Below are positions 1-3,000 of a stretch of DNA of 64,000 bases, one piece after another. Where the stretch lies: assembly GCA_964654465.1 (NCBI GenBank), contig CAZZIO010000018.1, positions 1 through 64,000 of the forward strand, given 5' to 3'. Made by a program: the position numbers. Each line of letters opens with the position of its first letter. The first letter of the stretch is position 1. The DNA comes from an uncultured Dictyoglomota bacterium (GTDB taxonomy: Bacteria; Dictyoglomota; Dictyoglomia; Dictyoglomales; Dictyoglomaceae).

Positions 1-3000
1 TTCCACCACTCTTTAAATTTTTCTGCTTTTATCTTTGCTTTTTCAGTTAAAGCTTTTAAAAAGATACTAAAACCTACAAGGAGCAAAACAAGGCTTAAGA
101 AAATACCAATAAATCTCACATAAGCAAGAAGAGGCCAAAAAATTATAATAGCTACAATCATTAACAGGCTTGAAATTGTTATTTTTTTATTTAACTCTTT
201 CTCTTTTTCTTCCAAATCTTCCTTCATGTTAACACTCCCAATATATTATAATTAATAATAAAAAATAAAAGAAAGTTTATTGGAGTAATAGGTAATGACA
301 AGAGAAGAAATGGACAAGATTAATAATCACTATGTACTTTTTATTGATGAAGTTGGTGACTGGAAAAATCCTCTATATATAGTTGGAGGATTAGTATTCA
401 ACCTATGTGATTTTTGGGATATCACTACAGAAATTAGAAATGCTAAAAAAGAAATTTTAGGTAAAAAACCACATGAAGAGTTTAAATGGAATGAGTGTAC
501 ATGTATTGAAAAAAGTAATGAAAAGAATAAACTCAAAGTTAAGGAATATATAGACGTAGCAACGAATATTATTAAAGATAAATCAGAAACTTTTCTTGCT
601 GCTATTGTTGATCTTAAAAGAGTAATATTATGGAATGAATGGAAAGAACAAAAACAAAATGATAACAAAAAGAAATATAAAACAAATCTGGATAAATGGG
701 TAAGAGAAACATGTATGAAAGATTTAATTGATAGGTATCAAAATTGGTTAGAAGAAAACAAGGGTTTAGGACTTATTATTATAGATAGATATCGTGGTCC
801 AACAAAATATGCAGAGTTTGAAAAAGAACATATAGGAGTCTTAACAAGCTTAATTTATGATGGATCTAAATATAGAGAGAATTATTGTAACATTATTCCG
901 CCATTGTTTGCAAATTCGGAGTTTTATGCTCTATTTGATATAAATGATTATGGACTTGGTGCATTTAGTTATGTTTTAAGACAACTCTATGATAAAAAGG
1001 AAGATTCTATTTACTATGAGCAAACTTTAAAGTTATACCAAGTAGTATTAGATAAAGTAAGAAAATCAAAAGACGGGAAAATATGGGGTTATGGTCTTAT
1101 AGATATTCCTAAAAATTTTAAGCCATTATTAAGAAATGTCATTAGTGAAGATGTACTTTACAATGTTATAAAAATATGAAGCCGGTGGGTTAATACACCC
1201 AACAGGATCACCCTGCCACCTATAGGTGCCCGGCCCTAAAATATTATATCATATTTAAAATTATGATGCGACAGCTCAGCCTCGCTTACGCTCGTTTTTG
1301 CTCTCGCAACTTTTTTAAATCTTTTCCCACCCTCCACCCTAATTTCAAATGCTTCGTTTCACTCCGCATTTCAAATTCTGCTCGCTTTGCTCGCAGTGTT
1401 TTTTCTCTCGCTCATGCTCGCCCTTGACCCTCGCTTTTGCTCGGACTATCCGCTCGCATAAGCTCGCTTCAAAAACAATCTATTCCCACCCACCACCCCA
1501 AAAGACAAAATTTGTGTTAAAATAATGGAATGAAGGAGGAAAAATTATGAAGTATCTCGGAATAGTAAGAAAAGAAAATAATATACTTTTTATGCCTGAA
1601 GGTTTTAAAGAGAAGGATAAAACCTATGAAGCTTTAGAGATTGAAGGAGTTATTATTTTAATCCCCTCACCTATAGATAAAGAAAGACTTTCTCATATAG
1701 AAAAGCTAATAGATGTATCTATAAATGAACATCGCAAATCCCTTGAGGATCTTGCTAAGTGAATTTTATTACCCTTGAAGAAATTCTATTGATCCATGAA
1801 AAGGTAGTTTTAGAAACTGGTGGGATTTTTGGCATTCTAAATTTTGAAGCAATAAAATCATCCTTAGAAAGACCCTTTTCGTCTTTTGAGGGAAAAGAGT
1901 TTTATCCTGATTTATGGCACAAAGTAGCTGTATTAATTCATAGTATTATCTCTTATCACCCTTTCATAGATGGAAATAAAAGAACAGCTCTTGTTGCTGG
2001 TGATGTATGTTTAAGGTTAAATGGATATAGGATAAGACCATCGGAAGAGGTAGAAAAATTCTTTTGGGAAATAGCAAGGGGAGAAAAGAGTATAGATGAT
2101 ATTGCAAAATGGTTGCAAGAAAACTCTGAGCCATGGGAAGAAAGAACAAAATAGGAAGGCGAGAGCGAGCAAATGCGAGCTGTCGCCCAAAAAATAATTG
2201 GCTTTGAGATTGCGAAAGCAATCTGAAAGCCAATTAATATCTCTCCATTCTATCCACCGGACTAAATTTCATCATGGCTTCCTGTATTTGCCTTCCTCCC
2301 ATATGAACATAGATCATGCATGTTGTGATATCAGAATGTCCCAGAATTTTCTGAAGTGTAAAAACATCTCCACCATTTCTAATGAAATTTGTTGCAAAGG
2401 TATGCCTTAATGTGTGAGGTGAGCATCTTACTCCTGTTATTCCTGCCTTCTTTGCAAGTCTTTCAATGACCCTTTCAATCCCTCTTTTATTTAGAGGATC
2501 ACCTTGTCTTGTGATAAATACTCTATCCTCATATGGGAAATGTCCTCTCATCTTTATCCATTTTGCCATCTCTTTTAATAATGTCCTTCCCATATAAACT
2601 TCTCTGTCTTTTCCGCCTTTTCCATCTCTGATCAGGATGCTTTTCTTATTAAAATTAATATCTTGTAGCTTGAGATTAATTAATTCAGAAAGCCTTATTC
2701 CAGTATCAAGAAATGTAATCATCATTACGTAATTCCTGAAGCCTTCCCATGTTTTTTTATTACATGCTTTTAAAAGAGCAAATACTTGTTCATCATTCAG
2801 TACATAAGGATACTGTTTTGGGAGCTTTGGCTTTTTAATCTTTTTAGACAGATCCTCATCAATATATCCTTCCTCATGAATAAAATGTAAGAATGTTTTA
2901 ATTGCTCTTATATGGCAATCAATTGTTGTTGGTTTTAATCCTCTTTTTTGTAATTGTGCGATATATCTTCTAATTTCCAGAATATTGAGGTTTTCAAAAG

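What a model noticed while it worked through the whole genome (the two positions that open the first line are those of the whole stretch)
1268..1501. Ultra-conserved 21-nt C-box in a repeat-rich non-coding element beside an integrase
A 230-nt non-coding element with about twelve GCTCGC hexamers and two C-rich boxes lies next to a Phd/Doc pair and a tyrosine integrase. Its box ATCTATTCCCACCCACCRCCC recurs exactly in at least 122 metagenome contigs with unrelated flanks and G+C of 33-66%, on viral contigs and a Bacteroides plasmid, yet in only 4 of 401 species genomes. It is an undescribed conserved motif of mobile DNA; its function is unknown.
Evidence so far: Calls 27, 54, 55, 174 (element, unique in genome, 0 of 200 shuffles reach 2 matches). 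Homologous element in G006 and fragment in G002. Metagenome contig L456: element 88.7% identical plus integrase 84% identical to g0270, without the toxin-antitoxin pair. 122+ exact hits, 72 of 74 distinct flanks. 4 of 401 genomes, reversed control 0. IMG/VR 116 against 24 for the reversed pattern; 21-mer in 5 viral contigs. Repressor or recombinase neighbours in 12 of 80 loci. Three tandem units on plasmid CP103159.1. No Rfam match; no paper.
(Added by a program. Inside this text positions count along the whole contig: contig position 1 is position 1 of the stretch shown here. "Call 12" and the like, gene names such as g00115 and contig names such as C1 are that model's own, and its searches are not shown. 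The text may have been shortened before it was handed on; [...] marks where a part breaks off. The agent that wrote the report below was given it as the finding of a first reader that could run no searches.)

Follow-up and report, generated by a model that had tools for sequence, protein, structure and literature searches.

The report
Cross-phylum C-rich interspersed repeat box
A 21-base C-rich box in a short non-coding module beside a prophage integrase is the invariant core of a small repeat scattered dozens of times through the intergenic DNA of unrelated bacteria and phages; what copies it and what it does are unknown.

Summary
The element is real. Window 1268-1498 is a 231-nt non-coding module with two C-rich boxes (1319-1339, 1478-1498), five CTCGC-N3/4-GCTCG pairs (only five exact GCTCGC, not twelve) and a conserved palindrome. 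It lies between an unknown ORF and a doc toxin pair, a Xer-like integrase and a duplicated tRNA-Val 5' half.

The box is much commoner than reported and does not mark mobile DNA as such. At least 124 stretches of species genomes hold the exact 21-mer. Single genomes of Dehalococcoidia, Cloacimonadota and Peptococcaceae hold 37-72 copies. These are nearly all intergenic and mostly lie between housekeeping genes, while most sampled relatives hold none. Seventeen positions are nearly invariant; four vary freely.

Flanks reassort around the box, and boxes form tandem arrays. In the integrase family, the DNA between box and integrase is a swappable cargo slot: doc pair, MNT/HEPN pair, type I R-M, or a hairpin. 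The module is 96% identical in a locus whose integrase is only 77% identical.

I read the box as the cis-acting core of a non-autonomous interspersed repeat that acts as a recombination junction. I found no enzyme, no RNA structure and no Rfam family, so the function is inferred.

The parts
1268..1498 (+). Discrete, portable non-coding module. It starts GCGACAGCTC and ends with box 2. Composition of 1268-1501: C 85, T 77, A 42, G 30.
   Evidence: Metagenome locus L135 carries the same module at 96.1% identity (223 of 232 columns) with unrelated DNA on both sides, while its integrase is 77.3% identical in DNA. Composition.
1268..1294 (+). Left terminal segment with the first CTCGC-N4-GCTCG pair (1281-1294).
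   Evidence: Homology with L135 begins exactly at 1268.
1319..1339 (+). C-box 1 (ATCTTTTCCCACCCTCCACCC), 2 mismatches from the query form.
   Evidence: It fits the degenerate consensus ATCTWTTCCCRCCCDCCRCCC derived.
1341..1377 (.). Palindrome AATTTCAAATGC...GCATTTCAAATT just after box 1.
   Evidence: Folds as a hairpin on both strands. It is kept in L134 and L137. In G161 it carries an extra base on each arm (AAATTGC...GCAATTT).
1380..1467 (+). Four CTCGC-N3/4-GCTCG pairs (1381, 1407, 1430, 1453). The last three are 23 bp apart.
   Evidence: The pair pattern occurs 6 times in contig C18 and once elsewhere in the genome. The G161 homologue has nine GCTCGC at 10-14 nt spacing (spacing counted by eye).
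1478..1498 (+). C-box 2, the exact 21-mer. It is the right end of the module and the left border of the variable cargo slot.
   Evidence: Similarity among the integrase-linked loci ends at the last C of the box.
1499..2233 (.). Cargo slot. Here it holds a 71-aa putative antitoxin (1547-1762) and a Doc toxin (1759-2154).
   Evidence: Doc. In relatives the same slot holds an MNT/HEPN-like pair on the other strand (named from my reading of the translations, no family search) in L135, L139 and L140. It holds a roughly 110-nt hairpin-rich non-coding piece in L134 and L137, another gene in L136, and a type I R-M operon in G161.
2160..2186 (-). Inverted copy of the module's left end (GCGACAGCTC plus one CTCGC-N4-GCTCG pair).
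   Evidence: Inverted repeat I2, 27 nt, 70%. Also present next to the integrase in L136.
2195..2236 (.). 19-bp hairpin with a GAAA loop between doc and the integrase stop codon.
   Evidence: Inverted repeat I6, 95% complementary. Shared with L136.
2234..3130 (-). Xer-like tyrosine recombinase (298 aa), the island or prophage integrase.
   Evidence: PF00589 8.4e-43. It scores below the cut-offs of the XerA, XerD and XerC models. Relatives of 72-93% identity lie beside the module. The G161 homologue is 69% identical and sits beside tRNA-Val.
3201..3295 (+). Duplicate of the promoter region and the 5' 49 nt (3247-3295) of tRNA-Val(CAC): an att-type repeat.
   Evidence: Rfam tRNA 42.6 bits at 3247-3317. 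ARAGORN finds no tRNA here. The intact gene on contig C32 shares the tRNA 5' part and all but one base of the upstream stretch, up to the same breakpoint.
295..1179 (+). 294-aa ORF of unknown family upstream of the module.
   Evidence: No Pfam or NCBIfam family. A truncated remnant of its N-terminus lies upstream of the module in L112 and L140. L134 and L137 keep only the DNA downstream of that remnant.

Best explanation
The 21-nt box, consensus ATCTWTTCCCRCCCDCCRCCC, is the cis-acting core of a non-autonomous short interspersed repeat. The repeat multiplies in bursts in the intergenic DNA of particular lineages and is carried between phyla on phages, plasmids and integrated islands.

Copies recombine with each other at the box. 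This reassorts what lies to the left and right of it, builds and collapses tandem arrays, and inserts or deletes the stretch between two boxes.

In this window the repeat is a two-box, 231-nt module at the edge of the cargo slot of a tRNA-Val-integrated prophage or island. There it acts as the fixed hinge beside which toxin-antitoxin and restriction cassettes are exchanged.

Shown: the repetition, the patchy burst-like distribution, turnover between relatives, reassortment of flanks, tandem arrays, the sharp border of similarity at the box, and exchange of the module independently of the integrase.

Inferred: that the box itself is what is bound or cut; what enzyme does it (an unidentified trans-acting protein, or host recombination on about 30 nt of identity); and that the exchange of cargo is caused by the box rather than merely bordered by it.
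For: 1. Copy number and patchiness.
- 55, 72 and 37 copies within 3 mismatches in three genomes of three phyla; reversed control 0, 1 and 0.
- 2 of 151 genomes in one class sample, 11 of 41 in one family sample (58, 53, 8, then 1-3 copies), and 7 of 81 in one phylum sample.

2. Turnover. In an orthologous 14-kb stretch, G002 has box arrays in two intergenic gaps where the equally box-rich relative G201 has none.

3. Conservation pattern. Variation is concentrated at positions 5, 11, 15 and 18, and each genome has its own majority variant.

4. Reassortment. Among 34 distinct copies fetched from G001, the two left-flank types and two right-flank types occur as AA 11, BB 10, AB 8, BA 2 and other 3.

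5. Arrays. The box recurs at spacings of 119 nt, about 90 nt, 159 nt in the window and 210 nt on the plasmid.

6. Window family.
- Similarity ends at the last base of the box in 6 integrase-linked loci that carry 3 cargo types.
- The 138-nt inter-box piece plus one box is present in the window, L134, L135 and L137. It is absent in L139, L140 and L112.
- Module and integrase identities are discordant: L135 96.1% against 77.3%, L134 79.0% against 88.6%.

7. The same layout recurs in another genus: tRNA-Val, integrase, cargo, module, lysis genes.

8. The box is not a structured RNA: 0 consensus pairs in 29 copies, and no Rfam family.
Against: - No mobilising enzyme was found. There is no Y1 transposase in 5 genomes tested. 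There is no reverse transcriptase in G001 or G002. Only generic Xer-like recombinases of 26-31% identity turned up. An all-against-all comparison of 1349 ORFs found no protein family shared by box neighbourhoods of different taxa.
- I could define no terminal inverted repeats and no target-site duplication.
- Near-invariance of 17 positions across phyla and phages fits a signal read by a conserved factor as well as it fits a selfish site.
- There is an orientation bias. The nearest upstream gene is on the box strand in 47 cases against 26, with 7 having none. That hints at selection relative to transcription.
- The sharp border of similarity at the box could simply reflect conservation of the box next to free-to-vary cargo.
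- About 30 nt of shared sequence could let ordinary homologous recombination produce the reassortment, with no special property of the box.
Confidence: 0.45

Rival explanations
1. The box is a gene-expression punctuation signal: a transcription terminator or insulator, or an RNA 3'-end stabiliser. Conserved host machinery reads it, and it spreads because it is useful to any cassette. In the window family, the whole C-rich, G-poor module would be a Rho-type terminator closing the late or lysis operon before the cargo slot.
For: - The copies are intergenic. The upstream gene is on the box strand in 47 against 26 cases. Convergent gene pairs are the commonest setting: 23 of the 66 instances with a gene on both sides.
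- Copies lie inside operons such as dnaK-dnaJ, moaA-moaC and hom-thrC, on the sense strand.
- The window module has C 85 against G 30.
- In G161 the module directly follows the endolysin and a small ORF of the lysis region, and faces cargo transcribed towards it.
- There is a tendency to a hairpin just downstream: mean folding energy -10.4 against -8.4 to -8.6 kcal/mol.
Against: - The excess of C over G is not general. Flanks of 89 genome instances and 18 viral instances show C minus G between -0.09 and +0.06.
- The hairpin tendency is weak (Mann-Whitney p 0.05 and 0.11).
- The simple scan found no intrinsic-terminator-like site in 1-3500 apart from the tRNA anticodon arm.
- In 12 of 18 non-duplicate viral loci (about 7 of 13 independent groups, my count), the box lies between divergent genes, where there is nothing to terminate.
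- Zero copies in most relatives, and no positional conservation between box-rich relatives, argue against a host-essential signal.
Confidence: 0.2
2. The box acts through DNA or RNA structure. The G-rich strand, four G-runs with single-base loops, would form a G-quadruplex, or the C strand an i-motif. Either would stall polymerases or start recombination.
For: - Most variation falls on the single bases between the C-runs (positions 11, 15, 18) plus position 5. C-run positions seldom change.
- The box sits at recombination borders.
Against: - One of the four runs is only CC in every copy.
- The conserved ATCTWTT part is not explained by a quadruplex.
- I made no structural test.
Confidence: 0.12
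3. The box is the recombination site of the neighbouring Xer-like integrase, in an integron-like system that captures cassettes between the box and the integrase gene.
For: - The module lies beside integrase relatives in L134, L135, L137, L139, L140 and G161, with a variable cassette between them.
- Toxin-antitoxin cassettes are typical integron cargo (established knowledge).
Against: - The integrase sits next to a 95-nt tRNA-Val duplication, which is its evident att site.
- The box has no dyad symmetry.
- Box-rich genomes lack any close relative of this integrase; the best is 31% identity.
- Cassettes have no second box at their far end.
- L136 has the integrase but no box within 4 kb.
Confidence: 0.08
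4. The module is a non-coding RNA gene or a cis-regulatory leader of the toxin-antitoxin pair.
For: - The module lies 48 nt upstream of the antitoxin start.
- Folding z-scores are -2.3 on the + strand and -2.7 on the - strand.
Against: - The cargo downstream is swapped, inverted or non-coding in relatives, while the module stays.
- Box copies have no consensus structure.
- There is no Rfam family.
Confidence: 0.05

Closest known systems
REP / BIME elements with their RAYT transposases
   Same: Short, high-copy, intergenic and often at gene 3' ends. They occur in clusters and mosaics with other small modules, and copy number is lineage-specific.
   Different: REPs are palindromic and species-specific, and go with a Y1 (RAYT) gene. 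The box is asymmetric and unpaired and nearly identical across phyla and phages. No Y1 transposase was found in the three box-rich genomes tested.
MITEs and other miniature non-autonomous transposons (such as Correia, RUP, BOX, ERIC)
   Same: Non-coding, dispersed, burst-like expansions, with presence or absence between relatives.
   Different: I could define no terminal inverted repeats and no target duplications. Here the conserved part is an internal or one-sided 21-mer, while the flanks differ by clade.
Integron attC / attI sites and integrase-less cassette arrays
   Same: A short site marks the borders of swappable cassettes, including toxin-antitoxin pairs, next to a tyrosine recombinase. 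Arrays also occur without any recombinase nearby.
   Different: attC sites are conserved in fold, not in sequence; the box is the reverse. This integrase is Xer-like, points towards the cassettes and has a tRNA att site. Most box copies border no gene cassette at all.
dif-like (pdif) modules moved by host XerC/XerD
   Same: Cargo modules, often toxin-antitoxin pairs, are bounded by a short site and have no recombinase of their own. Host Xer proteins do the work.
   Different: dif-type sites have two inverted arms around a short spacer. The box has no such symmetry. Modules here are not bounded by inverted box pairs.
G-quadruplex-dependent recombination at the Neisseria pilin locus
   Same: A G-run motif with very short loops lies beside a locus where variable cassettes are exchanged.
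   Different: That site is single-copy, species-restricted and tested at the bench. No structure or activity has been tested here.

Membership tests
REP / RAYT system | Repeat unit is an imperfect palindrome that folds as a hairpin | tested here: not met
   RNAalifold on 29 copies from G002 gave 0 consensus pairs. The box is never paired.
REP / RAYT system | A Y1 (IS200-like, RAYT) transposase gene in the same genome | tested here: not met
   PF01797 matched 0 of 5 genomes, including box-rich G001, G002 and G003. The control rang in 6 of 14 reference genomes. These are MAGs, so absence is not proven.
MITE | Terminal inverted repeats and target-site duplication | tested here: inconclusive
   Stems flank the box in G001, but they reassort. 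The window has a 10-nt inverted terminal match, 1268 against 2177-2186, which encloses the cargo rather than the module. No duplication is visible at the module ends in the window or L135.
Integron | IntI-type integrase divergent from an attI site and followed by ORF-attC cassettes | tested here: not met
   The integrase scores highest on Xer models. It scores 131.9 bits against a cut-off of 265 on the integron-integrase model. It is convergent with the slot. No hairpin-type site ends the cassettes.
Any Rfam RNA family | Match at or above the gathering score | tested here: not met
   Window 900-3500 at E up to 10 gave only the tRNA fragment above threshold. Twenty box loci (73 kb) gave 0 matches.
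Rho-dependent terminator (rut-type region) | About 80 nt or more of C-rich, G-poor, unstructured RNA | tested here: inconclusive
   Met by composition in the window module (C 85, G 30 of 234) and just downstream of the box in G002 (C 0.38, G 0.16). Not met around boxes in general. Termination itself cannot be tested with these tools.
Tyrosine-recombinase core site | Two inverted binding arms around a 6-8 bp spacer | tested here: not met
   The box and its flanks show no dyad symmetry in the sequence.

The most novel reading that the evidence does not exclude
The box is the recognition site of an unidentified, horizontally shared enzyme or RNA-guided machine. This machine would insert and exchange tiny non-coding 'mini-cassettes', and now and then gene cassettes, at a 21-nt asymmetric site in bacteria of many phyla and in their phages. 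That would be a new kind of site-specific mobile system with no transposase of any known family, one that also shapes the defence-cargo slots of prophages.
Probability: 0.2. Interest if true: 0.85.

Novelty: new variant of a known kind. Interest (0 to 1): 0.62.

Why it matters
Short interspersed repeats of bacteria are normally species-specific and tied to a known transposase. This one keeps 17 of 21 bases nearly unchanged in Chloroflexota, Cloacimonadota, Firmicutes, Nitrospirota, Bacteroidota, candidate-phyla bacteria, a small thermophile phylum and phages. It reaches dozens of copies per genome and has no identifiable enzyme.

If a specific factor reads it, finding that factor would reveal either a new mobilisation mechanism or a widely shared expression or recombination signal. 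Its position at the edge of prophage cargo slots bears on how defence and toxin-antitoxin cassettes are swapped.

There are practical consequences too. The box breaks metagenome assemblies: by eye, roughly a dozen of the 82 tabulated matches lie within about 100 nt of a contig end. It could also serve as a marker for such slots.

Tried and rejected
- RNA evidence: no RNA holder was listed for window 1000-2400.
- BLAST of the module against plasmids gave no match. Against phages it gave only four weak chance-level hits. The low-complexity filter probably masks the box, so this says little.
- Y2 (IS91-type) transposase search: nothing rang anywhere, controls included, so it is uninformative.
- tRNA idea. 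The box can be read as a T-stem 3' strand, an acceptor 3' strand, a C discriminator and, in the window, CCA. I dropped this for four reasons. The would-be T-loop is non-canonical. Most copies are not followed by CCA. The host tRNA-His ends differently. The copies are dispersed rather than clustered at one gene.
- Ideas recalled from memory and dropped on inspection, without any tool test: T-box leader, DnaA box, a NusG-paralogue loading site, a class II stop signal of phage-type RNA polymerases, a sigma-B-like -10 element, an anti-Shine-Dalgarno mimic and a Chi-like hotspot. None fits the copy number, the orientation or the conserved positions.
- General rut-like C over G skew: rejected.
- Downstream hairpin as a defining feature: only a weak tendency.
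- CTCGC pairs as a general companion of the box: not general. Within 200 nt upstream of the 125 instances, the relaxed pair pattern matched ten times. Eight matches are clear, all near -81 or -110: seven in the Nitrospirota/candidate-phyla group and one in L060. A related TCGCRGCATC follows the box in G002.
- My guess that ORF 295-1179 is a DUF3800 protein: not supported by Pfam.
- Orthologue comparison within G002's family was too divergent (66-84% in genes) to define insertion ends.
- Literature: literal sub-strings of the box and its complement and two keyword searches listed nothing relevant. One REP survey, PMC12306157, was checked by term search only and does not mention the motif. Supplements were not looked at.
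Full report
**What is at the coordinates**

Window 1268-1501 is non-coding and strongly pyrimidine-rich on the + strand (C 85, T 77, A 42, G 30).

- It holds the exact 21-mer at 1478-1498 and a copy with two mismatches at 1319-1339. None of 100 shuffles gave two matches.
- These are the only copies in the 1.91-Mb, 31.6% G+C genome.
- Exact GCTCGC occurs five times in the element, twice inverted at 2165 and 2175, and once elsewhere in the window. 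The expectation is 1.76, and 0 of 100 shuffles reached 8. 'About twelve' is therefore an over-count. CTCGC occurs 9 times and CTCG 11 times.
- The hexamers are organised as five pairs CTCGC-N3/4-GCTCG, the last three 23 bp apart.
- A palindrome, AATTTCAAATGC...GCATTTCAAATT (1341-1377), follows box 1.
- A 27-nt inverted copy of the element's left end lies at 2160-2186, beyond the toxin pair.

**Surroundings**

- Downstream lie a 71-aa ORF with no family match and a Doc toxin.
- Next come a 19-bp hairpin and a convergent 298-aa Xer-like tyrosine recombinase.
- Seventy bases beyond the recombinase start lies a 95-nt duplicate of the promoter and 5' part of tRNA-Val(CAC). It breaks off at the variable loop. 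The intact gene is on another contig. This is an att-type repeat, so the integrase belongs to an island integrated at tRNA-Val.
- From about 7 kb rightwards the window is core genome: ddl, lgt, lspA, ftsY, smc, rnc and fab genes.
- The contig starts at window position 1, so the island's left part is not seen.

**The box elsewhere**

The record titles name Dehalococcoidia, Cloacimonadota, Peptococcaceae, Clostridia, Selenomonadaceae, Nitrospirota, Desulfobacterota, Saprospiraceae, Bacteroidales and a Falkowbacteria MAG.
- Allowing three mismatches, single genomes hold 55 (G001), 72 (G002) and 37 (G003) copies. The reversed control gave 0, 1 and 0.
- Variation is concentrated at positions 5 (A/T), 11 (A/G), 15 (A/G/T) and 18 (A/G). 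The other 17 positions are nearly invariant, and each genome has its own majority variant.
- With the degenerate consensus, 26 viral loci match against 0 for the reversed pattern.
- The distribution is patchy. Genomes with a match number 2 of 151 in G002's class sample, 11 of 41 in its family sample (58, 53, 8, then 1-3 copies) and 7 of 81 in G003's phylum sample.
- The window's own phylum has only 11 genomes in the collection. The 234-nt element is found by DNA similarity in 3 of them, G000 included.

**Not a mark of mobile DNA**

I scanned 145 nearest ORFs around 80 instances, and 83 had a Pfam family at E up to 1e-5.

- Seventy are ordinary cellular genes: pheT, proS, hisS, cysS, dnaK/dnaJ, dnaG, moaA/moaC, hom/thrC, atpG, panB, metK, rpsP, spo0A and others.
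- Thirteen are of kinds common in mobile or defence DNA: DarT, a serine recombinase, SIR2, two methyltransferases, AbiV, GIY-YIG, a Tn3 transposase, DraIII, HTH and RelA/SpoT genes, and a nuclease.
- A 7-kb stretch of G003 with four boxes encodes peroxiredoxin, thioredoxins, Fpg, a flavodiiron protein, ferritin and TsaB.
- The boxes are intergenic.
- The nearest upstream gene is on the box strand in 47 cases against 26 (7 have none). The nearest downstream gene splits 35 against 38. Gene pairs are convergent in 23 cases, co-directional in 19 and 9, and divergent in 15.
- In viral loci the neighbours are diverse: terminase, methyltransferase with an HNH gene, RNase H and SSB, ribonucleotide reductases, dUTPase and tail genes. 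Twelve of 18 non-duplicate loci are divergent intergenic regions. These fall into about 7 of 13 independent groups (my count).

**Signs of a repeat that recombines at the box**

- In G001 the box is flanked by two kinds of left module and two kinds of right module. Among 34 distinct copies these occur as AA 11, BB 10, AB 8, BA 2 and other 3.
- A 119-nt tandem array interleaves them.
- In G002 the box is followed by a moderately conserved extension, and units form arrays of about 90 nt. Within 29 aligned copies the invariant columns are those of the box.
- Two box-rich relatives do not share box positions. In an orthologous 14-kb stretch, G002 has arrays in two intergenic gaps and G201 has none there.
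- On the Bacteroides fragilis plasmid, three 210-nt units lie between an ssb gene and two genes annotated as ribose-phosphate pyrophosphokinase and SLOG family protein.

**The window's own family**

Twelve metagenome loci encode relatives of the integrase. The module lies just beyond the integrase 3' end in L133 (identical to the window), L134, L135, L137, L139 and L140.

- Between the last base of the box and the integrase stop codon, the DNA is unrelated from locus to locus. The window has the doc pair. L135, L139 and L140 have an MNT/HEPN-like pair on the other strand (named from my reading of the translations, no family search). L134 and L137 have a roughly 110-nt hairpin-rich non-coding piece.
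- L136 has the integrase, another gene and the inverted left-end copy, but no box within 4 kb.
- The inter-box piece plus one box is present in four loci. It is missing in L139, L140 and L112, which go straight from the first part of the module through a single box into the cargo.
- L135 carries the module at 96.1% identity (inter-box part 98.1%), although its integrase DNA is 77.3% identical and both flanks are unrelated. L134 shows the opposite: integrase 88.6%, module 79.0%. The module is therefore exchanged independently of the integrase.
- In G161, a different genus of the same family, the order is tRNA-Val(TAC), an integrase 69% identical to the window's, a type I restriction-modification operon, the module, a small ORF, a GH108 endolysin, further phage genes, a DnaC-like gene, HTH regulators, an ImmA-like peptidase and tRNA genes.
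- The module thus sits at the end of a prophage's lysis region and borders the cargo slot next to the integrase.

**What it is not**

- No Rfam family matches.
- The box copies have no consensus secondary structure.
- The module folds only modestly better than shuffles (z -2.3 and -2.7).
- No enzyme goes with it. No Y1 transposase was found in five genomes. No reverse transcriptase was found in G001 or G002. Recombinases there are at most 31% identical to the window's integrase. No protein family is shared by box neighbourhoods of different taxa among 1349 ORFs.
- A C-over-G skew holds for the window module and just downstream of the box in G002, but not in general.
- A downstream hairpin is only a weak tendency.

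**Reading**

The best-supported account is that the box is the cis-acting core of a non-autonomous interspersed repeat. It expands in bursts, turns over quickly, travels on phages, plasmids and islands, and serves as a recombination junction. In this prophage family that makes the two-box module the fixed hinge of the cargo slot. I put this at 0.45.

What reads or cuts the box is unknown. About 30 nt of shared sequence might suffice for host recombination.

The main rival is an expression punctuation signal, a terminator or insulator (0.2). A four-stranded DNA structure (0.12), a site for the neighbouring integrase (0.08) and an RNA gene or leader (0.05) follow. The remainder covers anything I have not thought of.

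**Novelty**

Short interspersed repeats are a known kind. One whose 17 nearly fixed bases are shared by many phyla and phages, without a known transposase, is unusual. Three literature searches and one paper check found no description.

Noticed in passing
window 3130-3154 and 3377-3401; 3141-3176 and 3317-3352: A 25-nt direct repeat (88%) and a 36-nt inverted repeat (81%) bracket the tRNA-Val fragment, just upstream of the integrase start. They may be leftovers of successive integrations.
   Followed up: no
window 3201-3295 and G000:C32 c34883-34958: The tRNA-Val(CAC) promoter and 5' part are duplicated, rather than the usual 3' end. The DNA right of the fragment (3296 to about 7100) holds unknown ORFs, a nuclease-Ada zinc protein and an ImmA-like peptidase before core genes begin. 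This looks like a second, decayed island.
   Followed up: partly
window 1180-1235: A G+C-rich stretch (gccggtgggttaatacaccc...ggtgcccggc) right after the stop codon of ORF 295-1179 looks able to fold. It was not analysed.
   Followed up: no
L057 and L058 (one 4.5-kb contig, coverage 257 in its title): Two inverted copies of a conserved non-coding region of at least 400 nt lie about 3.5 kb apart. Each copy holds a CCTCGCACTGC(T/G)CC motif at -81, two hairpins, the box, a sigma-70-like promoter and an excisionase-like small ORF. The stretch between them holds several ORFs, of which the one scanned had no Pfam family. Relatives of this group carry methyltransferase and restriction genes, and the same region follows a large serine recombinase in L008 and L082.
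   Followed up: partly
L134 and L137, between box 2 and the integrase stop: A roughly 110-nt non-coding 'cassette' made of a 16-bp and a 7-bp hairpin (GCAA loop) occupies the slot that elsewhere holds toxin-antitoxin genes. It could be a small RNA.
   Followed up: no
L200, L206, L209, L221 (one syntenic phage group): About 25-30 nt after the box lies a hairpin whose stem differs between phages while staying complementary (CGGCA/TGCCG, CCTGCGC/GCGCAGG, TTGCAGACA/TGTCTGCAA). It surrounds a conserved loop.
   Followed up: no
L226 (G002:C35) 11480-12600 and other Dehalococcoidales loci: Other small repeats recur beside the box units. One is a hairpin ccccctctcc...ggagaggggg followed by acacagggggtgaggt. 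Another is ggggagtagcc.gcggagaggggc. Together they give mosaic intergenic regions.
   Followed up: no
L151 (CP103159.1) 46951-47371: The three 210-nt units on the B. fragilis plasmid each also hold a second C-run (CCCACCACCC) and two hairpins with TTCG-type loops. They lie directly downstream of an ssb gene.
   Followed up: partly
L017, about 60-90 nt upstream of the box: The 3' end of a tRNA- or tmRNA-like gene (T-arm and acceptor-like sequence) lies just upstream of the box in one Dehalococcoidales contig.
   Followed up: no
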